DNA of 32,000 bases from Cylindrospermopsis raciborskii Cr2010 (GCF_003367075.2 NZ_CP065936.1:2280001-2312000); one strand, 5' to 3'. Numbered from the stretch's first letter, positions 13,165 through 31,529 are shown. Made by a program: numbers and translations. Notes: generated by a model from the letters alone, not told the origin.

Positions 13165-14250
13165 ATGAAACTTTACCTTTATCTTTTAGCTGGTATCAGT
13201 TCCGCTTTGCTGGGTTGGAATATAGGACAGTTTTTCATCACTGACCTAGGTTTGTTTCCCCAATATCCAGAAATTATTCTGTTTCCCTGTATAGCGGTTT
13301 CCCTTTCCTGTAGTATGGTGATGAACGAGATATTCATCAGTAATCCTACTAGAGTGAAACGCAGTTTTGAGACTGCTAAACAACCTCTATTAATTGCCAC
13401 CGGATTAGGTATTATTTCTGGCTTAGTGGCTGGCATTATATCGCAAATTCTGTTTTGGCCAGTGATTCGCGTACCTACTCCTATTGTTAGAACTCTAGGA
13501 TGGTTATTAATTGGAGTTTCCGTCGGTTTAGCGGAGGGTTTAACTTGGCGTTGGCACAGCATGGAAGCATCAGGAAAAAAACGCCTGCAACAAAGACTGA
13601 AAATTAGTGTTATTGCTGCAAGTGGAGCAAGTTTAATGGCAGCAGTTTTATTTGAAATACTTCGTTTGACTATCGGTAAAATGCCACCAGATTTGAAGAG
13701 TATAGAAGACATCATTGGTTTCAGCATTTTAGGCTTATTATTGGGTGCAGTTTTTAGTGTGACTAATTCTCCTAGTTATATTGCAGCTTTACGAGCAGGT
13801 AAGGGTTTTGAGTATAAAGACTTTAAAGAAGATACCCAAGATGTTCCTTCCTATCCATTGATTAATAGCCATCAACTGTCATTTGTTAACAATGTGGAAG
13901 AAACTAATGATATTAAGCCTAATGAGATTCAAGAAGGTTTATCTATTCAACTACCTGCTAGAGGAAAAATCAGAATAGGATCTGATAGCATTAATACAGA
14001 TATTACCATTCCTGGATTACCTCCCCACATTGCCGATATTGAAATACAAAAAAGAGCTGCTAACTTGATTCCTGATAGTGAATTTTTCCACGCGATCGCA
14101 GTTAATGGGGTTACCCTCAGGCACAATCGCCAAGTTGCTCTAAGGCATAATTATTTATTGACTTTATACACATTTAATAAAGCAGGTGTCAAAGAAGAAA
14201 AATATTATCGTTTTGTCTACTACAATCGTTTTCTTGATCCCCAGGCATAA
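13165..14250 (+). CDS. Polytopic membrane protein with a possible degenerate FHA-like C-terminal domain
   Basis: 361 aa. The N-terminal ~200 aa contain about 6 hydrophobic helices. The C-terminal segment GKIRIGSDSINTDITIP...HIADIEI...AVNGVTL...L loosely follows the FHA pattern (G-[RS]...D...H...NG). The FHA assignment is weak. Confidence 0.5.
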   Translation: MKLYLYLLAGISSALLGWNIGQFFITDLGLFPQYPEIILFPCIAVSLSCSMVMNEIFISNPTRVKRSFETAKQPLLIATGLGIISGLVAGIISQILFWPVIRVPTPIVRTLGWLLIGVSVGLAEGLTWRWHSMEASGKKRLQQRLKISVIAASGASLMAAVLFEILRLTIGKMPPDLKSIEDIIGFSILGLLLGAVFSVTNSPSYIAALRAGKGFEYKDFKEDTQDVPSYPLINSHQLSFVNNVEETNDIKPNEIQEGLSIQLPARGKIRIGSDSINTDITIPGLPPHIADIEIQKRAANLIPDSEFFHAIAVNGVTLRHNRQVALRHNYLLTLYTFNKAGVKEEKYYRFVYYNRFLDPQA

Positions 14251-14322
14251 TATAGCTGTAGCCAAGTTAATTAGGACGCTAGTTACTTGAGAACGATTTC
14301 CATATCAACAATCACCCACTTC

Positions 14323-14344
14323 TCTCAATATATTCTCAATATAT
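14323..14344 (+). promoter_or_regulatory. Tandem 11-bp direct repeat (tctcaatatat x2), candidate operator upstream of the RHH-like ORF
   Basis: Exact repeat at 14323-14333 and 14334-14344. A third CTCAATA core lies at 14355-14361 inside an imperfect palindrome (14356-14383). The repeats sit about 135-155 nt upstream of the ATG at 14480. Confidence 0.3.
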
Positions 14345-14479
14345 AAGGTGAAAACTCAATAAGGAATATAATACCTTTATTGATAGGCTAAGAAGTTTGT
14401 CATTAGAGAAGCAAACTAGTTAAAATAATTGGGAAGTGGGGAGTTTCAATTTAATCCCAAAACTAACAAGGATAAAAAT

Positions 14480-15016
14480 ATGGCTAGACCTGGTGGAAAC
14501 CCTGAACTCAAAAAATATCAATTTTCTAGTGAAGGGGAACCTAATAATGCTCAACTTCGCTTGTGGGTTACTAAATCTCTTTTGACTAGGCTTAACAATA
14601 CCTTCGGAGCGAATAGAAATAAGTGGATTAGAGAAACTCTAACCAAAGCATTAGATGAAATTGATGAAAATCATATGAAACATGATATGAAGAACTTTGA
14701 GGAAGAAACAAAGATGCCACTATTAACTAATATCGAGTTAAAAGGAATAGAAACTGGTAAGGAAATTGGTAAGGAAATTGGCAAGGAAATTGGCACATTA
14801 GAAAAAGCTCATGATTATGTGAAACTGGTGTTGAAAACCCGATTGGGTGACATACCAGAGACAATTGCCAAAGGGGTGGACACAATATCAGTATTACCAA
14901 TTTTGGATGAGCTACTAAAGTTGGCAATCAAAGTTGATTGTTTTGAAGATTTTCACCAATCCTTATTAAAATTATCTCCCAAAAAGTTTGAGTCAAATGA
15001 GTCGGATAAGAGCTAA
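14480..15016 (+). CDS. Chimeric protein: ribbon-helix-helix-like N-terminus fused to the C-terminal (DUF4351-like) module of the downstream Rpn-like genes
   Basis: The ORF track start at 14429 is TTG. I use the ATG at 14480, which has AAGGA 7 nt upstream. Residues ~20-60 (AQLRLWVTKSLLTRLNNTFGANRNKWIRETLTKALDE) fit a beta-strand/helix/helix RHH pattern. From KNFEEETKMPLL onward the sequence is the repeat-unit C-terminal module, nearly identical at nucleotide level to 15690-16001. Confidence 0.7.
   Translation: MARPGGNPELKKYQFSSEGEPNNAQLRLWVTKSLLTRLNNTFGANRNKWIRETLTKALDEIDENHMKHDMKNFEEETKMPLLTNIELKGIETGKEIGKEIGKEIGTLEKAHDYVKLVLKTRLGDIPETIAKGVDTISVLPILDELLKLAIKVDCFEDFHQSLLKLSPKKFESNESDKS
14756..14791 (+). 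repeat. 12-bp in-frame tandem repeat GG(T/C)AAGGAAATT x3, encoding (GKEI)3
   Basis: Counted directly. The third-position pattern of the Gly codon is T-T-C. Confidence 0.95.
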
Positions 15017-16001
15017 TTATGACGAACCATGGAAAGAAGCACTAACGGAGTATTTTGAACAATTTCTGCTTTTCTTCTTTCCGGGAATTCACCAATTAAT
15101 TGATTGGGGAAAAACACCAGAGTCTCTAGATAAAGAACTGCAAAGAATTACAGCCTTATCAAAAACGAAAAGGCGCTTTGCAGATAAATTGTATAAAGTC
15201 TGGTTAGTTAGTGGGGAAGAAATCTGGGTGTTGATTCACATTGAAATTCAAAGTCAATATGAGGAAGAATTCCAAAAGAGGATGTATATTTATAATTACC
15301 GTGCTTTTGACCTATATCAAAAACCGGTGATTAGTCTAGCAATTTTGGGAGATGAAAAAGCTGATTGGAAACCAGAAAGTTATAATTATAGCTTAGGAGG
15401 GTGTGAGGTAAGTCTGAAATTTCCCGTGGTGAAACTACTCAGCTATGAGGAAAAATGGTCAGAACTGGAAGAAAGTAATAATCCTTTTGCTATAGTGGTA
15501 ATGGCACATCTAAAAACAAAAGCAACTAAGGGAAAACCAGAGGAGAGAGAAAAATGGAAATGGATTTTAATCCGAGGACTATATAACGGGGGGTTAGATA
15601 GAAACCAGATAGTTCGATTGCTGGGAATCATTGATACAATGATGAAGCTACCTAAAAAATCACAGGAAAGTTTGGAGAATAAGATAAAGAACTTTGAAGA
15701 GGAAACAAAGATGCCACTGTTAACTAATATCGAGTTAAAAGGAATAGAAACTGGTAAGGAAATTGGCAAGGAAATTGGCACATTAGAAAAAGCTCATGAT
15801 TATGTGAAACTGGTGTTGAAAACCCGATTGGGTGACATACCAGAGACAATTGCCAAAGGGGTGGACACAATATCAGTATTACCAATTTTGGATGAGCTAC
15901 TAAAGTTGGCAATCAAAGTTGATTGTTTTGAAGATTTTCACCAATCCTTATTAAAATTATCTCCCAAAAAGTTTGAGTCAAATGAGTCGGATAAGAGCTA
16001 A
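14997..16001 (+). CDS. Rpn/YhgA-like PD-(D/E)XK nuclease family protein (putative transposase family) with DUF4351-like C-terminal domain, copy 1
   Basis: The ORF track start at 14988 is TTG. The ATG at 14997 gives MSRIRANYDEPWKEALTEYFEQFLLFFFP... The core FADKLYKVW...WVLIHIEIQSQ...RMYIYNY matches the D...ExQ nuclease core of the YhgA/Rpn (Transposase_31-like) family. The C-terminal (GKEI)n plus LVLKTRLGDIPE...L..LLKLAI..D.FEDF resembles DUF4351. The ATG lies 20 nt inside the upstream ORF. Confidence 0.75.
   Translation: MSRIRANYDEPWKEALTEYFEQFLLFFFPGIHQLIDWGKTPESLDKELQRITALSKTKRRFADKLYKVWLVSGEEIWVLIHIEIQSQYEEEFQKRMYIYNYRAFDLYQKPVISLAILGDEKADWKPESYNYSLGGCEVSLKFPVVKLLSYEEKWSELEESNNPFAIVVMAHLKTKATKGKPEEREKWKWILIRGLYNGGLDRNQIVRLLGIIDTMMKLPKKSQESLENKIKNFEEETKMPLLTNIELKGIETGKEIGKEIGTLEKAHDYVKLVLKTRLGDIPETIAKGVDTISVLPILDELLKLAIKVDCFEDFHQSLLKLSPKKFESNESDKS
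15753..15776 (+). repeat. 12-bp in-frame tandem repeat x2, encoding (GKEI)2
   Basis: Counted directly. The pattern is T-C. Confidence 0.95.
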
Positions 16002-17046
16002 TTATGACGAACCATGGAAAGAAGCACTAACGGAGTATTTTGAACAATTTCTGCTTTTCTTCTTTCCGGGAATTCACCAATTAATTGATTGGGGAAAAAC
16101 ACCAGAGTCTCTAGATAAAGAACTGCAAAGAATTACAGCCTTATCAAAAACGAAAAGGCGCTTTGCAGATAAATTGTATAAAGTCTGGTTAGTTAGTGGG
16201 GAAGAAATCTGGGTGTTGATTCACATTGAAATTCAAAGTCAATATGAGGAAGAATTCCAAAAGAGGATGTATATTTATAATTACCGTGCTTTTGACCTAT
16301 ATCAAAAACCGGTGATTAGTCTAGCAATTTTGGGAGATGAAAAAGCTGATTGGAAACCAGAAAGTTATAATTATAGCTTAGGAGGGTGTGAGGTAAGTCT
16401 GAAATTTCCCGTGGTGAAACTACTCAGCTATGAGGAAAAATGGTCAGAACTGGAAGAAAGTAATAATCCTTTTGCTATAGTGGTAATGGCACATCTAAAA
16501 ACAAAAGCAACTAAGGGAAAACCAGAGGAGAGAGAAAAATGGAAATGGATTTTAATCCGAGGACTATATAACGGGGGGTTAGATAGAAACCAGATAGTTC
16601 GATTGCTGGGAATCATTGATACAATGATGAAGCTACCTAAAAAATCACAGGAAAGTTTGGAGAATAAGATAAAGAACTTTGAAGAGGAAACAAAGATGCC
16701 ACTGTTAACTAATATCGAGTTAAAAGGAATAGAAACTGGTAAGGAAATTGGTAAGGAAATTGGTAAGGAAATTGGCAAGGAAATTGGTAAGGAAATTGGC
16801 AAGGAAATTGGCAAGGAAATTGGCACATTAGAAAAAGCTCATGATTATGTGAAACTGGTGTTGAAAACCCGATTGGGTGACATACCAGAGACAATTGCCA
16901 AAGGGGTGGACACAATATCAGTATTACCAATTTTGGATGAGCTACTAAAGTTGGCAATCAAAGTTGATTGTTTTGAAGATTTTCACCAATCCTTATTAAA
17001 ATTATCTCCCAAAAAGTTTGAGTCAAATGAGTCGGATAAGAGCTAA
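15982..17046 (+). CDS. Rpn/YhgA-like PD-(D/E)XK nuclease family protein, copy 2
   Basis: Protein identical to copy 1 except that it has 7 rather than 2 GKEI units. It shows the same 20-nt start/stop overlap with copy 1. Confidence 0.75.
   Translation: MSRIRANYDEPWKEALTEYFEQFLLFFFPGIHQLIDWGKTPESLDKELQRITALSKTKRRFADKLYKVWLVSGEEIWVLIHIEIQSQYEEEFQKRMYIYNYRAFDLYQKPVISLAILGDEKADWKPESYNYSLGGCEVSLKFPVVKLLSYEEKWSELEESNNPFAIVVMAHLKTKATKGKPEEREKWKWILIRGLYNGGLDRNQIVRLLGIIDTMMKLPKKSQESLENKIKNFEEETKMPLLTNIELKGIETGKEIGKEIGKEIGKEIGKEIGKEIGKEIGTLEKAHDYVKLVLKTRLGDIPETIAKGVDTISVLPILDELLKLAIKVDCFEDFHQSLLKLSPKKFESNESDKS
16738..16821 (+). repeat. 12-bp in-frame tandem repeat x7, encoding (GKEI)7
   Basis: Counted directly. 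The pattern is T-T-T-C-T-C-C. Confidence 0.95.
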
Positions 17047-18055
17047 TTATGACGAACCATGGAAAGAAGCACTAACGGAGTATTTTGAACAATTTCTGCT
17101 TTTCTTCTTTCCGGGAATTCACCAATTAATTGATTGGGGAAAAACACCAGAGTCTCTAGATAAAGAACTGCAAAGAATTACAGCCTTATCAAAAACGAAA
17201 AGGCGCTTTGCAGATAAATTGTATAAAGTCTGGTTAGTTAGTGGGGAAGAAATCTGGGTGTTGATTCACATTGAAATTCAAAGTCAATATGAGGAAGAAT
17301 TCCAAAAGAGGATGTATATTTATAATTACCGTGCTTTTGACCTATATCAAAAACCGGTGATTAGTCTAGCAATTTTGGGAGATGAAAAAGCTGATTGGAA
17401 ACCAGAAAGTTATAATTATAGCTTAGGAGGGTGTGAGGTAAGTCTGAAATTTCCCGTGGTGAAACTACTCAGCTATGAGGAAAAATGGTCAGAACTGGAA
17501 GAAAGTAATAATCCTTTTGCTATAGTGATAATGGCACATCTAAAAACAAAAGCAACTAGGGGGAAACCAGGGGAGAGAGAAAAATGGAAATGGATTTTAA
17601 TCCGAGGACTATATAACGGGGGGTTAGATAAAAACCAGATAGTTAGATTGCTGGGAATCATTGATACAATGATGACGCTACCTAAAAAATCACAGGAAAG
17701 TTTGGAGAATAAGATAAAGAGCTTTGAGGAGGAAACAAAAATGCCACTATTAACTAATATCGAGTTAAAAGGAATAGAAACTGGTAAGGAAATTGGTAAG
17801 GAAATTGGCAAGGAAATTGGCAAGGAAATTGGCACATTAGAAAAAGCTCATGATTATGTGAAACTGGTGTTGAAAACCCGATTAGGTGACATACCAGAGA
17901 CAATTGCCAAAGAGGTAGACACAATATCAGTATTACCAATTTTGGATGAGCTACTAAAGTTGGCAATCAAAGTTGATTGTTTTGAAGATTTTCACCAATC
18001 CTTATTAAAATTATCTCCCAAAAAGTTTGAGTCAAATAAGTCGGATAAAAGCTAA
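17027..18055 (+). CDS. Rpn/YhgA-like PD-(D/E)XK nuclease family protein, copy 3 (diverged C-terminal half)
   Basis: The first ~500 nt are identical to copies 1 and 2. From 17528 onward there are 8 amino-acid substitutions (V->I, K->R, E->G, R->K, K->T, N->S, G->E, E->K) and 4 GKEI units. Confidence 0.75.
   Translation: MSRIRANYDEPWKEALTEYFEQFLLFFFPGIHQLIDWGKTPESLDKELQRITALSKTKRRFADKLYKVWLVSGEEIWVLIHIEIQSQYEEEFQKRMYIYNYRAFDLYQKPVISLAILGDEKADWKPESYNYSLGGCEVSLKFPVVKLLSYEEKWSELEESNNPFAIVIMAHLKTKATRGKPGEREKWKWILIRGLYNGGLDKNQIVRLLGIIDTMMTLPKKSQESLENKIKSFEEETKMPLLTNIELKGIETGKEIGKEIGKEIGKEIGTLEKAHDYVKLVLKTRLGDIPETIAKEVDTISVLPILDELLKLAIKVDCFEDFHQSLLKLSPKKFESNKSDKS
17783..17830 (+). repeat. 12-bp in-frame tandem repeat x4, encoding (GKEI)4
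   Basis: Counted directly. The pattern is T-T-C-C. Confidence 0.95.
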
Positions 18056-18095
18056 TTATAATAAGCCATGGAAAGAAGCACTAACCCAATATTAG
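18036..18095 (+). pseudogene. Decayed 5' stub of a fourth Rpn-like copy
   Basis: The position equivalent to the start codon reads ATA instead of ATG. The next 19 codons (ISRIKANYNKPWKEALTQY) parallel MSRIRANYDEPWKEALTEY, then a TAG follows at 18093-18095 and homology is lost. Confidence 0.8.
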
Positions 18096-18104
18096 GAGGT
18101 AGAA

Positions 18105-19400
18105 ATGTTGAATGTAGTTAAAAAAAATTACACATTGAGTTATTTTCGTTTAAAAACTTGTTTAATTGGCAAATCTCTGACCCTATCTTTGTTTTTAATG
18201 AGCAGTTTAATTAGTCCCACTTTAGCGGGAATTAAAAAGGCTGAGATTGTGGATAGTCCTACTATTAAAGATGATAGGGTTACCATTAAAATCAAAGTGT
18301 TAGGAGAAGAAAGTAGACCAGTGATGGGTTTAGAGAGAAATAATTTTGAGTTAAAACTGGATGGCAAAAAATTCAAATTTAAACCCAAGGACTGGAAAAG
18401 TCCAGAAGAAACAGTACCGCCCCCAGCGTGGATTATTGTTTTACTAGATTTTAGTGGTAGCATGAATCAAACGGATAGCGGTGGTAGTAAGAAAATCACA
18501 GGTGCAATTAATGCAATTGGGCAATTTGCTAAAGTTTCTAGTGAGAGGGGAGGAGATACGCAAATCTCCATAGTTCCCTTTGGTGAAGCAGGGAAAAATT
18601 GTCCAGAATACCCTGTAGATAAGGATACATTGGACAAATTTATATCAGCTAGTGATTTTAAACTGCAAAATAGTTTGGAATATTTATCTACTTTGAATCC
18701 TTGTGGATCTACCAATTTATATCAACCTTTAAAGAAGTCCTTGCAGTTTTTAGGTAATCCAGAAGATCCACGTTTTACCCTACCAGAAAATTCGTCAGAT
18801 CCCCAACCAAGACTATCAATCATCCTGTTATCTGATGGCTATCACAATGCTATGAATGAATATCGAGATTTTAGTGAGTTAAAATCCCTGTTGAAAGATT
18901 ATGAAAATATTACTGTACACACTTTAGGATATGGATTAACACCAGAACAATTGGGAGTAAAATATGGACTCAACCGTCCAGCTACCCGTCAAGATGTTAA
19001 TGCAAATAAGGTTCCTGAAGCAGAATTTGTCGATAAAACAAGATTGGCAGAAATTGCTAATTTGACCGGTGGAATTGCAGAGTTTTCTGGAGATGAGAAA
19101 GCAATAGCAGAGAATTTACAATTGTTTCTCAACGCTCTATTAGGAGAATACCAAATTAGCTATATCCAACCCAATGCAGAACGAGGAACTTTACATAAAG
19201 TCCAGGTACGAGTCAAGGATGAAAACAGTCAAGGTGAGTCAAAGTTGGTAGAATATATCATGCCTGTATTTGGGCGATCGCTCCCTTTGGCAAATCGTTT
19301 ATTTATGGTTATATCCATACTGTTCGTTGTAATAGTTGGGGGAATAATTCCCTTTTACTACTGGGGAGAATATCTCAAACGTGAGGTACAAGCGAATTAG
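18105..19400 (+). CDS. von Willebrand factor A (vWA) domain protein with N-terminal signal/anchor and C-terminal TM helix
   Basis: 431 aa. The MIDAS-type motif is in IIVLLDFSGSMNQ, and further vWA blocks are ISIVPFG and ILLSDGYHN. It has a hydrophobic N-terminus (LTLSLFLMSSLISPTLAG) and a C-terminal helix (LFMVISILFVVIVGGIIPFYYW). A strong SD, AGGAGG (18094-18099), lies 5 nt before the ATG. Confidence 0.85.
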   Translation: MLNVVKKNYTLSYFRLKTCLIGKSLTLSLFLMSSLISPTLAGIKKAEIVDSPTIKDDRVTIKIKVLGEESRPVMGLERNNFELKLDGKKFKFKPKDWKSPEETVPPPAWIIVLLDFSGSMNQTDSGGSKKITGAINAIGQFAKVSSERGGDTQISIVPFGEAGKNCPEYPVDKDTLDKFISASDFKLQNSLEYLSTLNPCGSTNLYQPLKKSLQFLGNPEDPRFTLPENSSDPQPRLSIILLSDGYHNAMNEYRDFSELKSLLKDYENITVHTLGYGLTPEQLGVKYGLNRPATRQDVNANKVPEAEFVDKTRLAEIANLTGGIAEFSGDEKAIAENLQLFLNALLGEYQISYIQPNAERGTLHKVQVRVKDENSQGESKLVEYIMPVFGRSLPLANRLFMVISILFVVIVGGIIPFYYWGEYLKREVQAN

Positions 19401-19730: not shown

Positions 19731-20321
19731 ATGAATCAGTTAGCGATACCCTGTCTACTATTTCGCAGTGGAACATCCCGTGGACCATTTTTTTTGTCTG
19801 GAGATCTACCTGATGACCATACCACCCGGGACAAAATAATTTTGGCAACTATGGGTTCACCAGATGAAAGACAAATAGATGGTATAGGGGGTGCAACAAC
19901 ATTAACTAGTAAGGTTGTGATTTTCTCTCCATCTCATCACGATTGGGCAGATATAGATTTTCTTTTTGGACAGGTTAGCATTAATCAGAATTTGATTGAC
20001 TGGAGCCCATCCTGTGGTAACATGACCGCCGCAGTTGCTCATGCTGCTATTAAAAGAGGTTTGGTCTCAGCGTTAGATCCCATAACCAAGGTGAAAATTC
20101 GCAACTTAAACACCAATTCATTAGTTGAAACTGTAGTACAAACTCCCCAATCTGAAATTATGTATGATGGTAACACGTCTATTGACGGAGTACCAGGAGC
20201 AGCAGCACCAGTTGTGATGAATTTTATGGAGGTTGTGGGATCTAAAACCGGTCAGTTGTTACCAACGGGCCATTGTCGGGAAGAAATCGAGGGAATTGAG
20301 GTTACCTGTCAGGAATATTAG
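19731..20321 (+). pseudogene. PrpF / 4-oxalomesaconate tautomerase family gene, truncated to about the N-terminal half
   Basis: 196 aa. IPCLLFRSGTSRGPFFL...MGSPDERQIDGIGGATTLTSKVVI...SPSCGNM match PrpF-family N-terminal blocks. Family members as I recall them are roughly twice this length. The ORF ends at a TAG at 20319-20321, exactly where permease homology begins. Confidence 0.7.
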
Positions 20322-21478
20322 GAGCTTGTAATAGTGTTAATCTAGCTCAACTGGCTGTTAGCCATCCGGTTAGTGGTGGTATTTATGAATATGGTTATAA
20401 ATACTTAACTCCTTGGTTAGGTTTTACAGGAGGTTGGATCTATCTTCTAAGTAAAACTGCTGTAGCCGCCACAGCGGCTTTGGGATTTTCTGGTTATCTT
20501 TTAAACAATATTGGTCTTGCTGATGCAGGTATTTTAATCCCCGTAGCGGAAATAGCTGTAGTTATTATTACGTTGATTGTGTTTGGTGGTATGCGCAGTT
20601 CCCAGATATCAACGATTGTAGTGGTCTTAATCACTATGGCTTCTTTACTGGGTTTAATTACTGCAGGTCTATTCTTCTGCTTTTCCCATGGTTGGGGAAA
20701 ATTAACATTTTCGGGAATAAACTCTTATCAGGGAGCAACTAGTTTCTTGCAATCGGTAGCTCTGATGTTTGTTTCTTATAATGGTGCTGCTCGGATTTCT
20801 ATGGTCAGCGAAGAAATTGTTGACCCTAAAAAAAGTATACCAAGGGCAATTATTTTCACCGTGGTGACAACAATGGTTCTGTACATTGGTGTTTCACTGG
20901 TTAGTTTAGGTTCCATTGGGGCAGAATCATTTGCTGCTGCGACAAGAACAAACGCTGCTCCATTAAAGGCTGTAGCTGATAGTTTTGGTATTCCTTTAGT
21001 CTCTAACCTATTGGCTTTAGGTGCAATTACTTCCATGTTAAGTATATTGCTAACAACTGTTTTAGGCGTTTCTCGATTACTTTTAGCCATGGGAAGAAGG
21101 GGAGATATGCCTAAATTGTTTGCCAAACTGAACACTGCAGGAACAACACCAGAATTTGCCGTTATCTTTGTGGGTATTGCAATTGCGGTTTTAGTATTAA
21201 TTGGTGATGTAAGGGTAACATGGTCTTTTGGCACTTTTGGTGCACTATACCGCAGTTTTATTACCAGTTTGTCAGCATTACAAATTGGGGATCAAGAAAG
21301 ATTATATCCAAAGTGGATATCTTGGTTTTCTTTGTGCAGTTCAGTAGTGTTAGCCTTCTGTATTGAATGGTATTATTGGACAATTGGTTTAGGATTAGTC
21401 ATTGTGGGATTAATCTGGCGTTTTATATTCCGTCAGCTTTATACCTCGGAGAATATTCAGTTAATAACCAAGGACTAA
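20300..21478 (+). pseudogene. APC-superfamily amino acid permease lacking its 5' end and start codon
   Basis: The reading frame is open from 20300 and the ORF track calls only 20480 (TTG). My upstream translation, ...ACNSVNLAQLAVSHPVSGGIYEYGYKYLTPWLGFTGGWIYLL, is the conserved (A)ELA..P.SGG.Y.Y block that normally follows about 50 or more N-terminal residues including TM1. There is no ATG or GTG in frame before 20480. Confidence 0.7.
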
Positions 21479-28535: not shown

Positions 28536-28595
28536 AGTTTTTTTTAGTTTTTTTTAATTTTTTTTAATTTTCCTTAATTTTTTTTAATTTTTCCC
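28536..28595. promoter_or_regulatory. Six consecutive 10-bp units A(A/G)T8 (phased A/T tracts), predicted intrinsically bent DNA in the divergent psbD / 28672 intergenic region
   Basis: AG/AA dinucleotides fall at 28536, 28546, 28556, 28566, 28576 and 28586. Each is followed by T8, with one unit reading ttttcctt and the last run shortened to T5. That gives an exact 10-bp period over 60 bp. Confidence 0.7.
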
Positions 28596-30470: not shown

Positions 30471-31529
30471 TTATTCCTGGTTTTCTGTATACCAATGGTG
30501 GAGGTTCTGTACCTGCACCCTACGGGAAACCCGTCGATATTTCTTGCTTTCTAGTTTTGGCTCGTAGTGATTCTCACCCTGACCTTTAGTCTTTAATTTT
30601 AGGGTGGACTCAGGGTCAGACTGCTGTTGACAAATGGTTTGGTAGGCGATCGCCTCTTGCAAAAATTCCAGGTAGTATTCATATCTTTCCCAATCATTGT
30701 TGACTATACAACCTGGTTCGTCTCGATGTAAACAATCACTAAATCGACAACTCCCCTTCTCTAAGAATTTTCTACCTTCGGGAAAATAGTAGATTAACTC
30801 TTCTGGAGCAAAACCTAAATCTGGTTGATTAAACCCTGGTGTGTCTGCTAGTAAACCACCATTGGGTAACTCAAACAATTCTACGTGACGAGTGGTATGA
30901 CGACCACGGGCCAACTTACCAGAAACCTTTCCCACCCTCAAGTTTCCCTGGGGAATTAATTGGTTAATCAAACTGGACTTCCCCACACCAGAAGGACCAG
31001 CAATTACCGTGATTTTATTTTTTAAATATTCCCTAGCTTCCTCAATATTCATACCCTCTTGGACGCTCAAAAAAATTGGCTTGTATCCCCAACTCTCTAA
31101 GCGATCGCTAATTGCTCTTCTTTCATCCTCTTTGATTAAGTCACATTTATTTAAACATAACCGAAGATCTATACCTGTAGACTCGCCCTTAATTAAAAAT
31201 CTACTTAACTGCACAGGTTCCAAAGGAGGATCCGCAAGTGCAAAAACTAAGAGAATTTGATTTACATTGGCGATCGCTGGTCTATCCAATTCAGTTTTTC
31301 GTGGTAAAACATCAGCGATCGCACCTCTTCCCCCCATCCAGTCAGGTTCTTCCACCAGTACCTGATCTCCCACCATTACCTGCTGACCAATTTTCTTCAA
31401 TCTGGTTCTGCGAGTGCACAGGAGAGTGGGAATTAGTCCCCCCTGTAACTGCACACGGTAAAAATTGGCCTGCACAGCCAACACCGTACCCACCAATTCT
31501 TGATTGGTAGCAATCCTATCTCCTGTCAT
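30471..31529 (-). CDS. rsgA: Ribosome small-subunit-dependent GTPase A
   Basis: 352 aa. It has an N-terminal OB fold, circularly permuted GTPase motifs (LNKCDL, GPSGVGKSSLIN, DTPGF) and a C-terminal zinc knuckle (CRFSDCLHRDEPGC). Confidence 0.9.
   Translation of the reverse strand: MTGDRIATNQELVGTVLAVQANFYRVQLQGGLIPTLLCTRRTRLKKIGQQVMVGDQVLVEEPDWMGGRGAIADVLPRKTELDRPAIANVNQILLVFALADPPLEPVQLSRFLIKGESTGIDLRLCLNKCDLIKEDERRAISDRLESWGYKPIFLSVQEGMNIEEAREYLKNKITVIAGPSGVGKSSLINQLIPQGNLRVGKVSGKLARGRHTTRHVELFELPNGGLLADTPGFNQPDLGFAPEELIYYFPEGRKFLEKGSCRFSDCLHRDEPGCIVNNDWERYEYYLEFLQEAIAYQTICQQQSDPESTLKLKTKGQGENHYEPKLESKKYRRVSRRVQVQNLHHWYTENQE

What the first reader, a model, noticed from the sequence alone, without database searches (positions are those of the whole stretch)
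14688..18095. Head-to-tail tandem amplification of a ~1 kb nuclease gene with identical 20-nt start/stop overlaps
There are three complete units, a 5' partial unit (C-terminal module only) and a 3' 60-nt stub. The periods are 985 and 1045 bp. The sequence ATGAGTCGGATAAGAGCTAA is both the first 20 nt and the last 20 nt of the gene, so each stop codon lies inside the next gene. A single ancestral gene flanked by this direct repeat would be an ideal substrate for unequal crossing-over. Copies 1 and 2 appear nucleotide-identical outside the 12-bp tract, which points to very recent duplication or ongoing gene conversion. Members of this family are usually scattered as single paralogues, so a phased, overlapping tandem array is unusual. 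I saw no terminal inverted repeats or target-site duplications, which argues against a classical IS.
Basis: seen in the sequence. Interest (0 to 1): 0.8.

Follow-up and report, generated by a model that had tools for sequence, protein, structure and literature searches.

The report
Tandem Rpn-like toxin-antitoxin gene array
A cyanobacterial chromosome carries three head-to-tail copies of a roughly 1 kb nuclease-like gene that differ almost only in how many times a four-amino-acid motif is repeated. This matches the known behaviour of Rpn toxin/antitoxin phage-defence genes, so it is a tidy new example rather than a new kind of system.

Summary
Window 14688-18095 holds a 5' partial unit, three complete units (985, 1045 and 1009 bp) and a degenerate 60-nt stub. 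Units 1 and 2 are identical outside a 12-bp in-frame tract.

The gene is a divergent member of the Rpn/YhgA-like (DUF4351-bearing) PD-(D/E)XK family. It has an invariant D63/E83/Q85 motif and an invariant internal Met239 preceded by GAGGA. A (GKEI)n tetrapeptide repeat starts 14 residues after that Met, which is the RpnL/RpnS "antitoxin within toxin" layout of Zhong et al. 2023. Repeat numbers are 3 (5' S-only module), then 2, 7 and 4.

The array is not peculiar to this genome. At least four other Cylindrospermopsis raciborskii assemblies carry it at the same locus with 4, 5, 8 and at least 5 units. A diverged array of about 13 units with the same overlap junction sits at another locus (dS about 0.75, dN/dS about 0.13). 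Microcystis relatives also form short arrays.

The tandem state is therefore old, kept similar by concerted evolution, and variable in copy number. Tandem rpn arrays and repeat-number specificity are already published. The verdict is a new member of a known kind, of moderate interest as a natural isogenic series differing only in repeat number.

The parts
14480..15016 (+). Chimeric ORF of 178 aa. The first 70 aa (14480-14689) belong to a small protein family found on plasmid- or phage-like contigs, and they are fused in frame to the C-terminal (S) module of the repeat unit.
   Evidence: ORF list. Homologues of 67-92 aa end a few codons after the junction. Their contexts carry ParA/McdB, Rad52-like, ERF and ArdA genes. 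In strain L005 the N-terminal part is frameshifted, so the fusion itself may not be under selection.
14688..14996 (+). 5' partial unit holding the C-terminal module only. It contains an S-only ORF at 14714-15016 (100 aa) with (GKEI)3 at 14759-14794.
   Evidence: Alignment to full units. Internal ATG at 14714 preceded by GAAGAAACAAAG.
14997..16001 (+). Copy 1 of the Rpn-like gene (334 aa). Its nested S-ORF is 15711-16001 (96 aa), with (GKEI)2 at 15756-15779.
   Evidence: The start at ATG 14997 matches the homologue N-termini.
15982..17046 (+). Copy 2 (354 aa). Its nested S-ORF is 16696-17046 (116 aa), with (GKEI)7 at 16741-16824. It is identical to copy 1 outside the tract.
   Evidence: The tract fingerprint TTCTCCC is identical to a unit in strain L005.
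17027..18055 (+). Copy 3 (342 aa). Its nested S-ORF is 17741-18055 (104 aa), with (GKEI)4 at 17786-17833. It has 14 substitutions against copies 1 and 2, all in the 3' half.
   Evidence: It is orthologous to the terminal unit of L007 and L002, differing by 1 substitution and sharing the fingerprint TCCC.
18036..18095 (+). Degenerate 3' stub made of the first ~55 nt of a further unit. Its ATG is mutated to ATA. It abuts the ribosome-binding site of the downstream vWA gene (18105-19400).
   Evidence: The identical stub is present in all other strains at this locus.
14397..14426 (+). Best promoter-like site upstream of the array (TTGTCA-18-TAAAAT, 10 of 12 matches). Weaker 9 of 12 sites recur in each unit about 50 nt before the internal ATG and about 25 nt before the next unit's ATG.
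   Evidence: Consensus scan only. This is not evidence of function.

Best explanation
The region is a tandem array of a divergent Rpn-like (YhgA-like PD-(D/E)XK nuclease plus DUF4351-like C-terminal domain) gene. By analogy with E. coli Rpn, each unit would encode two products. The first is a full-length toxic DNA endonuclease (L). The second is a small C-terminal protein (S, 96-116 aa) made from an invariant internal start, which binds and blocks its own L.

The in-frame 12-bp tract lengthens the first helix of the S domain by GKEI units. In Rpn proteins only an S with the same repeat number inhibits a given L. On that basis the three copies (n = 2, 7, 4) would be three mutually insulated toxin-antitoxin or phage-defence modules that are otherwise nearly identical. 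The 5' S-only module (n = 3) would be an orphan antitoxin.

The array arose by tandem direct duplication and is maintained and resized by unequal crossing-over and gene conversion between the ~1 kb units. This gives concerted evolution, diverged edge units and copy-number polymorphism among strains. The 20-nt start/stop overlap is a by-product of a junction in which the upstream gene reads through a very short spacer into the next start.

Shown: the array anatomy, the homology, the conserved motifs, the conserved internal Met, the repeat position, the comparative variation and purifying selection. Inferred: nuclease activity, S translation, repeat-number specificity and a defence role.

Family assignment:
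- The unit protein matches a Microcystis neighbour protein by BLASTP at E = 6e-18. That protein passes PF14261 DUF4351 (2.8e-21) and PF04754 (21.1 bits against a cutoff of 21).
- The profile-profile comparison gives 98.5% probability, E = 1.5e-15, over 287 collinear columns.
- D63/E83/Q85 are invariant in 30 homologues and align with RpnC D62/E81/Q83.
- Plasmid homologues of 42-57% identity are annotated as DUF4351 or Rpn family.

S module:
- M239-P240 are invariant and preceded by conserved EE codons, with GAGGA 7 nt upstream of the ATG.
- GKEI repeats begin 14 residues after that Met. They have one hydrophobic residue plus three charged or Gly residues, as described for RpnS (PMC10400941).
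- The AF2 model puts the repeats in a long first helix followed by short helices.
- The S-ORF is intact in every unit examined across six arrays, although many L-ORFs are broken in other strains.

Selection and age:
- dN/dS is 0.12-0.16 and dS is 0.72-0.78 against a second array that shares the junction.

Concerted evolution and copy-number polymorphism:
- Units within an array differ by 0-19 substitutions, against 160-190 between the two arrays.
- Arrays of 3, 4, 5, 8 and at least 5 units occur at the same locus in different strains.
- Orthologous units keep their tract fingerprints across strains.
- Short-read assemblies break at the array.

Precedent:
- Literature describes tandem rpn arrays, standalone RpnS genes and repeat-matched inhibition.
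- Related arrays with S-only modules occur in Microcystis and other genera.
Against: - The unit protein itself fails the curated thresholds. PF04754 scores 15.1 bits against 21, TIGR01784 scores 21 against 52.1, and there is no PADLOC hit.
- Direct comparison with E. coli RpnC aligns only the catalytic core (E = 0.029, probability 1.7%).
- Fold searches gave no significant match. The top hits for the full-length model were PD-(D/E)XK enzymes at E about 0.1, and nothing was found for the S model.
- The locus is not in a defence island, since its neighbours are housekeeping genes.
- Within-genome distinctness of repeat numbers is not absolute. L095 has two intact units of equal length, and L007 and L002 have duplicates that involve broken or S-only units.
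- The strains share ancestry, so no valid statistic could be computed for that distinctness.
- There are no expression or activity data.
Confidence: 0.65

Rival explanations
1. The array is a neutral or selfish macrosatellite. On this reading it is a by-product of unequal crossing-over plus slippage in the 12-bp tract, with no benefit from multiple copies or from differing repeat numbers, and the genes are on their way to decay.
For: Copy number varies freely among strains. Many L-ORFs are disrupted in other strains: 3 of 8 in L002, 1 of 5 in L005, 1 of 4 in L007 and 8 of 13 in L095. There is no defence-island context. The chimeric 5' ORF is frameshifted in one strain.
Against: Purifying selection acts on both domains across dS of about 0.75 (dN/dS 0.12-0.16). 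All three L-ORFs in the window are intact. Every S-ORF examined is intact. Tract fingerprints are stably inherited between strains rather than hypermutating. Some apparent 1-bp frameshifts elsewhere could be long-read errors; the n=3 unit broken in L002 is intact in G7.
Confidence: 0.2
2. The unit is a mobile element, following the 'putative transposase' annotation of the family, and multiplied by repeated insertion next to itself.
For: Relatives carry the family annotation 'putative transposase'. A second array sits at a different locus in another genome. The left flank derives from a plasmid- or phage-like element.
Against: There are no terminal inverted repeats or target-site duplications. 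The units are perfectly phased with an identical junction. The array edges fall inside the unit at different phases, at about nt 688 on the left and about nt 55 on the right. PD-(D/E)XK proteins are not known as autonomous transposases, and rpn arrays are attributed to tandem duplication (PMC10400941).
Confidence: 0.04
3. The array is an assembly artefact, meaning a single gene has been inflated into several copies.
For: Short-read assemblies cannot resolve the locus and break there. The copy number in any one assembly could be off.
Against: The three copies are distinguishable by tract lengths of 2, 7 and 4, and copy 3 by 14 substitutions. The same unit types with the same tract fingerprints recur in independent chromosome-scale assemblies.
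Confidence: 0.03

Closest known systems
E. coli Rpn proteins (RpnA-E, RpnP2): the RpnL toxin / RpnS intragenic antitoxin phage-defence system (Zhong et al. 2023, PMC10400941)
   Same: Both have an N-terminal PD-(D/E)XK core with D...E-x-Q. Both have an internal in-frame Met preceded by a purine-rich RBS inside codons. Tetrapeptide repeats (KGIE in RpnC, GKEI here) start 8-20 residues after that Met in a long helix. Repeat number is variable, standalone S-only genes lie next to full genes, tandem duplication occurs, and TIR/TSD are absent.
   Different: Sequence similarity to E. coli Rpn is confined to the catalytic core, and the curated HMM thresholds are not reached. The copies here are near-identical and differ essentially only in repeat number. 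Adjacent genes overlap by 20 nt. No activity, expression or defence data exist for this subfamily.
Cyanobacterial DUF4351 / YhgA-like proteins (for example the Microcystis L019:4970-5950 protein with (GIEQ/GIER)n repeats)
   Same: Homology is full-length and collinear (hhalign 98.5%). The domain order is the same, and a tetrapeptide repeat sits at the same place.
   Different: Identity is only about 24%. The window subfamily (N-terminus ANYDExWKEAL, repeat GKEI) is not captured by PF14261 or PF04754 at their thresholds.
Tandem rpn gene arrays reported in other bacteria (Zhong et al. 2023, main text and SI Fig. S1B; commentary PMC10400984)
   Same: These are arrays made by tandem direct duplication. 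The commentary already proposes that repeat variation prevents inhibition in trans among copies.
   Different: I could not see the SI figure. Features specific to this locus are up to 8-13 units, strain-level copy-number polymorphism at a fixed chromosomal locus, overlapping junctions and amplified S-only (L-broken) units. I do not know whether these have been described before.
EcoR124I/EcoR124II HsdS TAEL repeats
   Same: The copy number of an in-frame 12-bp (4-aa) repeat in a helix changes specificity by changing helix length.
   Different: There the repeat sets the DNA target spacing of a type I restriction enzyme. Here it would set protein-protein pairing.

Membership tests
Rpn / YhgA-like family (PF04754, TIGR01784, COG5464) | Match to the family HMM above its curated cutoff | tested here: not met
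   PF04754 scores 15.1 bits against a cutoff of 21 (17 of 30 homologues give sub-threshold hits, best E = 0.0023). TIGR01784 scores 21 bits against 52.1.
Rpn / YhgA-like family (PF04754, TIGR01784, COG5464) | Demonstrable homology to bona fide members | tested here: met
   The link is transitive. BLASTP gives 6e-18 and hhalign gives 98.5% (E = 1.5e-15, 287 columns) to Microcystis proteins that pass PF14261 (2.8e-21) and PF04754 (21.1 against 21). The direct link to E. coli RpnC is weak.
Rpn / YhgA-like family (PF04754, TIGR01784, COG5464) | PD-(D/E)XK catalytic motif (D ... E-x-Q/K) on a beta-hairpin | tested here: met
   D63, E83 and Q85 are invariant in 30 sequences and align to RpnC D62/E81/Q83. 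The AF2 model places them on strands 62-70 and 75-83. The fold search was not significant, with PD-(D/E)XK enzymes as top hits at E about 0.1.
RpnL/RpnS toxin-antitoxin (gene within gene) | Internal in-frame start with an RBS that yields the C-terminal domain as a separate protein | tested here: inconclusive
   The sequence features are present. M239-P240 are invariant, E234/E235 are conserved, and GAGGA lies 7 nt upstream of the ATG. Translation could not be tested.
RpnL/RpnS toxin-antitoxin (gene within gene) | Four-amino-acid repeats (one hydrophobic plus three charged or Gly) starting 8-20 residues after the S Met, variable in number | tested here: met
   GKEI starts 14 residues after M239. 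The number is 2, 7, 4 and 3 in the window and 1-10 in other strains and units. The criterion is taken from PMC10400941.
RpnL/RpnS toxin-antitoxin (gene within gene) | C-terminal domain is a DUF4351-like helical bundle with a long first helix | tested here: inconclusive
   PF14261 is hit by only 2 of 30 homologues (best E = 4.7e-4). hhalign extends through the DUF4351 region. The AF2 S model has helices at 6-40, 45-53, 57-69 and 73-83. Foldseek against PDB found no match.
RpnL/RpnS toxin-antitoxin (gene within gene) | L is a toxic DNA endonuclease, S binds and inhibits only the repeat-matched L, and the system protects against phage | not testable with these tools
   This needs expression, biochemistry and phage assays.
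Insertion sequence / transposon | Terminal inverted repeats and target-site duplications around the unit | tested here: not met
   The only inverted repeat found is an 18-nt palindrome internal to each unit. Unit junctions are seamless.
Tandem gene array under concerted evolution | Units are more alike within an array than between arrays, edge units are more diverged, and copy number is polymorphic | tested here: met
   Substitutions number 0-19 within arrays against 160-190 between them. Unit 3's 3' half and the stub are diverged. Arrays have 3 to about 13 units among assemblies.

The most novel reading that the evidence does not exclude
The array works as a cassette store for specificity alleles. 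Units with broken L-ORFs but intact S modules, such as the amplified deletion-variant units of the second array, and the 5' S-only module are retained as donors. Gene conversion and unequal crossing-over shuffle repeat-length variants into the intact toxin genes. The cell can then rapidly re-key its toxin-antitoxin pairs, for example to escape a phage factor that mimics or targets one S length. This would be a prokaryotic defence analogue of antigenic-variation cassette systems.
Probability: 0.1. Interest if true: 0.75.

Novelty: new member of a known kind. Interest (0 to 1): 0.42.

Why it matters
The array extends the Rpn "antitoxin within toxin" architecture to a cyanobacterial subfamily that current Pfam, NCBIfam and PADLOC models miss. 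This subfamily is widespread in bloom-forming genera (Cylindrospermopsis, Microcystis, Dolichospermum). Copies 1 and 2 differ by nothing except five GKEI repeats. That makes them a natural isogenic pair for testing whether repeat number alone insulates toxin-antitoxin pairs, and what drives that diversification. The commentary on the Rpn discovery explicitly left this question open. On the practical side, the locus breaks short-read assemblies and is a strain-typing marker (unit count plus tract fingerprint) for C. raciborskii.

Tried and rejected
- Direct family scans of the unit protein found nothing above threshold in Pfam, NCBIfam or PADLOC.
- Sequence and profile searches of PDB gave only spurious hits.
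- Foldseek against PDB with the full-length AF2 model and with the S-module model gave no significant match, and the RpnA-S structure was not retrieved.
- hhalign of the family against single-sequence E. coli RpnC found only the catalytic core.
- The PCC 7120 plasmid homologue annotated as 'Rpn family' is itself sub-threshold in both HMM libraries, so its name was not used as evidence.
- I looked for phage-borne copies or S-mimics and found none in IMG/VR (N-domain patterns) or in GenBank phages.
- Origin by integration of an excised unit circle was considered and rejected. It predicts equal phases at the two array edges, whereas they are about nt 688 and about nt 55.
- The idea that the window is strain G7 was rejected. 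Copy 1's protein is 100% identical to a G7 protein, but G7's array reads S8|6|2|9|3|1....
- A statistic for 'all repeat numbers distinct within a genome' was not computed, because the strains are not independent.
- The bias of L-ORF disruptions towards the N-terminal part is not significant (about 6 events, P about 0.13 by my estimate).


Full report
**1. Observation**

- The 20-mer ATGAGTCGGATAAGAGCTAA occurs exactly at 14997, 15982 and 17027, and with two mismatches at 18036. The unit lengths are 985, 1045 and 1009 bp.
- The length differences come entirely from a 12-bp tract, AAGGAAATTGG(C/T). It is present 2, 7 and 4 times in the three full units and 3 times in the 5' partial unit.
- With the tract removed, units 1 and 2 are identical. 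Unit 3 has 14 substitutions, all in unit positions 502-867.
- Homology to the unit starts at about 14683-14688, just before the C-terminal module. It ends at about 18090 after a degenerate 55-60-nt copy of the gene start.
- Each ORF (334, 354 and 342 aa from the ATG) stops at a TAA 17 nt beyond the next ATG, in another frame.
- There are no inverted terminal repeats. The only inverted repeat is an 18-nt palindrome inside each unit.

**2. What the unit encodes**

The protein gets no Pfam hit at E <= 0.01 and only a sub-threshold TIGR01784 (Rpn family) hit. PADLOC and PDB sequence searches found nothing.

It has more than 1,200 relatives, almost all cyanobacterial (Microcystis, Dolichospermum/Anabaena, Snowella and others). 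Most are annotated as hypothetical and a few as Rpn family, RpnC/YadD or YhgA-like.

Several results connect this subfamily to DUF4351-bearing YhgA-like proteins.
- In an alignment of 30 homologues, D63, E83 and Q85 are invariant. They align with D62/E81/Q83 of E. coli RpnC.
- A Microcystis gene next to one homologue passes PF14261 DUF4351 (2.8e-21) and just passes PF04754 (21.1 against 21 bits).
- That gene matches the window protein at BLASTP E = 6e-18.
- The profile-profile comparison gives 98.5% probability over 287 collinear columns, covering both the nuclease and the DUF4351 regions.
- Plasmid-borne homologues (42-57% identity) carry the same PGAP names. At least one of them is itself sub-threshold, so I do not lean on the names.

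The AF2 model (pLDDT 78) has a beta-hairpin carrying D63 and E83 and a helical C-terminal part. Foldseek against PDB gave only non-significant hits, led by the PD-(D/E)XK enzymes Cap4, Kpn2I and EcoO109I. I conclude that this is a divergent branch of the Rpn/YhgA-like superfamily. Nuclease activity is inferred, not shown.

**3. The 12-bp tract and the nested ORF**

Zhong et al. 2023 (PMC10400941) established the following for rpn genes.
- They encode a toxic endonuclease (RpnL).
- From an internal start, they also encode the C-terminal domain as a separate antitoxin (RpnS).
- Repeat number varies among strains.
- Only an RpnS with the same repeat number blocks a given RpnL.
- Standalone RpnS (DUF4351) genes occur beside rpn genes.
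- rpn arrays arise by tandem direct duplication.

The window unit shows the sequence-level counterparts.
- M239-P240 are invariant in the family and preceded by conserved Glu codons, which form GAGGA 7 nt upstream of the ATG.
- The GKEI repeats begin 14 residues later and are of the described composition.
- The S-ORFs are 96, 116 and 104 aa.
- The AF2 model of the S module is a long helix (6-40) containing the repeats, followed by three short helices. Foldseek did not retrieve any Rpn structure, so the fold test is inconclusive.
- The 5' partial unit begins about 25 nt before the internal ATG, so it is an S-only module with n = 3.

That partial unit is fused in frame to the first 70 codons of a small gene. 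The intact homologues of this gene (67-92 aa) lie in plasmid- or phage-like contigs with ParA/McdB, Rad52-like, ERF and ArdA genes.

**4. Comparative evidence**

The window is a Cylindrospermopsis raciborskii chromosome. Copy 1's protein is 100% identical to a protein of strain G7, but G7's array differs, so the window is another strain. The same locus, between the 361-aa membrane-protein gene and the 431-aa vWA gene, holds arrays of different composition in other chromosome-scale assemblies. In the table, S marks the 5' S-only module, numbers are repeat counts, and x marks a disrupted L-ORF.

| Assembly | Array composition |
|---|---|
| window | S3, 2, 7, 4 |
| CP091284 | S3, 5, 2, 4, 4x |
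| VHLJ01 | S3, 5, 2, 4, 7x, 6 |
| CP073250 | S7, 6, 2, 9, 3x, 1x, 7, 5, 4x |
| G7 (CP195152) | S8, 6, 2, 9, 3, 1, ... |

- Orthologous units keep their C/T tract fingerprints. For example, TTCTCCC occurs in the window and in VHLJ01, CC in all strains, and TCCC in the terminal unit of three strains. The units are therefore real and stably inherited, and the arrays differ mainly by gain and loss of whole units.
- Draft short-read assemblies end inside the array.
- One strain has an ISL3 element next to a remnant of the array.

A second array of about 13 units sits at a different locus (QueA ... fatty-acid hydroxylase/NRPS) in GCA_051062915.1.
- Its units are 16-19% divergent from the window's, but only 2-10 substitutions apart within subtypes.
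- It shares the 20-nt junction with one mismatch, and the read-through tail.
- Against the window it gives dS of 0.72-0.78 and dN/dS of 0.12-0.16 for both the nuclease and the S parts.
- The overlapping tandem arrangement is therefore old, the genes are under purifying selection, and the identity among neighbours reflects concerted evolution rather than a recent first duplication.
- In that array a deletion variant with a broken L-ORF but an intact S-ORF has itself been amplified.

The S-ORF is intact in every unit I examined.

Outside the genus, about 18 of 80 loci of the closest relatives have an adjacent second copy or an S-only module. Microcystis ichthyoblabe has three near-identical tandem copies plus a downstream S-only gene. 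These are separated by a 21-nt spacer and differ in the repeat region.

**5. Mechanism**

The best-supported reading is a tandem array of Rpn-like toxin/antitoxin modules whose S/L pairing is keyed by repeat number. The array was generated by tandem duplication and is continually remodelled by unequal crossing-over and gene conversion.

The 20-nt overlap needs no special role. Homologues end 10-15 codons earlier. In this lineage the stop was evidently lost, so translation runs through the short spacer into the next start. Once two units exist, the whole 1 kb unit is the recombination substrate.

In all four fully retrieved arrays at the vWA locus, the intact L genes of a genome carry different repeat numbers. 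This fits the published suggestion that repeat variation prevents inhibition in trans among multiple rpn copies (PMC10400984). However, the strains are related, the second-locus array has two intact units of equal length, and I could not compute a valid statistic.

Unit-internal promoter-like sites exist, but only at consensus level. The locus is not in a defence island, and no phage-borne homologues were found.

**6. Rival explanations**

- A neutral macrosatellite is the main rival. Many L-ORFs are broken in other strains and copy number drifts. It is weakened by the low dN/dS, the universally intact S-ORFs and the stable tract fingerprints.
- Transposition is contradicted by the absence of TIR/TSD and by the phased, seamless junctions.
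- An assembly artefact is contradicted by the distinguishable units that recur in independent assemblies.

**7. Unexplained**

- The array edges fall inside the unit at different phases (about nt 688 on the left and about nt 55 on the right here; about nt 257 and about nt 680 in the second array). A simple duplication of one segment, or integration of an excised circle, does not account for them. Edge deletions or illegitimate recombination are needed.
- How the array, or a fragment of it, reached a second locus is unknown.

**8. Novelty**

Tandem rpn arrays, standalone S genes, tetrapeptide-repeat variation and its role in specificity are all published. New here are the cyanobacterial subfamily that current models miss, the large and strain-variable arrays at a fixed locus, the overlapping junction, and copies that differ only in repeat number. 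This is a new member of a known kind, and it is useful as a natural test-bed.

Noticed in passing
window 19731-21478 (breakpoint about 20309): Relative to strain LYXA01 (L006), the window lacks 684 bp. This truncates the PrpF-like gene (196 aa against 360 aa) and the amino-acid permease gene (332 aa against 442 aa). The same short forms occur in L005, L007 and L014.
   Followed up: partly
window 14250-14690; loci L096-L101: The small ORF at the array's left edge belongs to a 67-92 aa family found in plasmid- or phage-like contigs of Nostocales with ParA/McdB, Rad52-like, ERF, ArdA and SNase genes. The left flank of the array therefore looks like a mobile-element remnant.
   Followed up: partly
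L095 1163-15364 (JBPFSD010000001.1 473496-494218): A second array of about 13 units lies at a different locus (QueA ... FA hydroxylase/NRPS). It has two unit subtypes. One carries an internal deletion that breaks the L-ORF at codon 35 but keeps the S-ORF, and it has been amplified to about 8 copies with repeat numbers 1-10.
   Followed up: partly
L006 7831-9951 (LYXA01000001.1) and L103 1-1161 (G7, CP195152.1): IS elements abut the array in two strains. An ISL3 transposase lies next to a 235-aa array remnant with different upstream synteny. A DDE_Tnp_1 IS interrupts the upstream membrane-protein gene in G7.
   Followed up: no
L019 4970-5950 and 7564-8505 (Microcystis sp. BLCC-F210): Two copies of a classical DUF4351/YhgA-like gene flank a homologue of the window gene. 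They carry (GIEQ/GIER)n tetrapeptide repeats of different length, roughly 7 and 11 copies. This shows the same within-locus repeat-number diversification in a sister subfamily.
   Followed up: no
window 15377-15394, 16362-16379, 17407-17424: An 18-nt near-palindrome, AAGTTATAATTATAGCTT, lies inside the coding sequence of every unit. Its significance is unknown.
   Followed up: no
window 28538-28592 and 31348-31382: Two short tandem repeats lie elsewhere in the window. One is a T-rich 10-mer with 5.5 copies and the other an 18-mer with 1.9 copies.
   Followed up: no
window 14727-14927, 15443-15912, 16428-16957, 17473-17966 (minus strand): Antisense ORFs of 62-132 aa with (PISL)n or (QFPC/QFPY)n run through the 12-bp tracts. 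They are mirror images of the repeat and are probably not genes.
   Followed up: no
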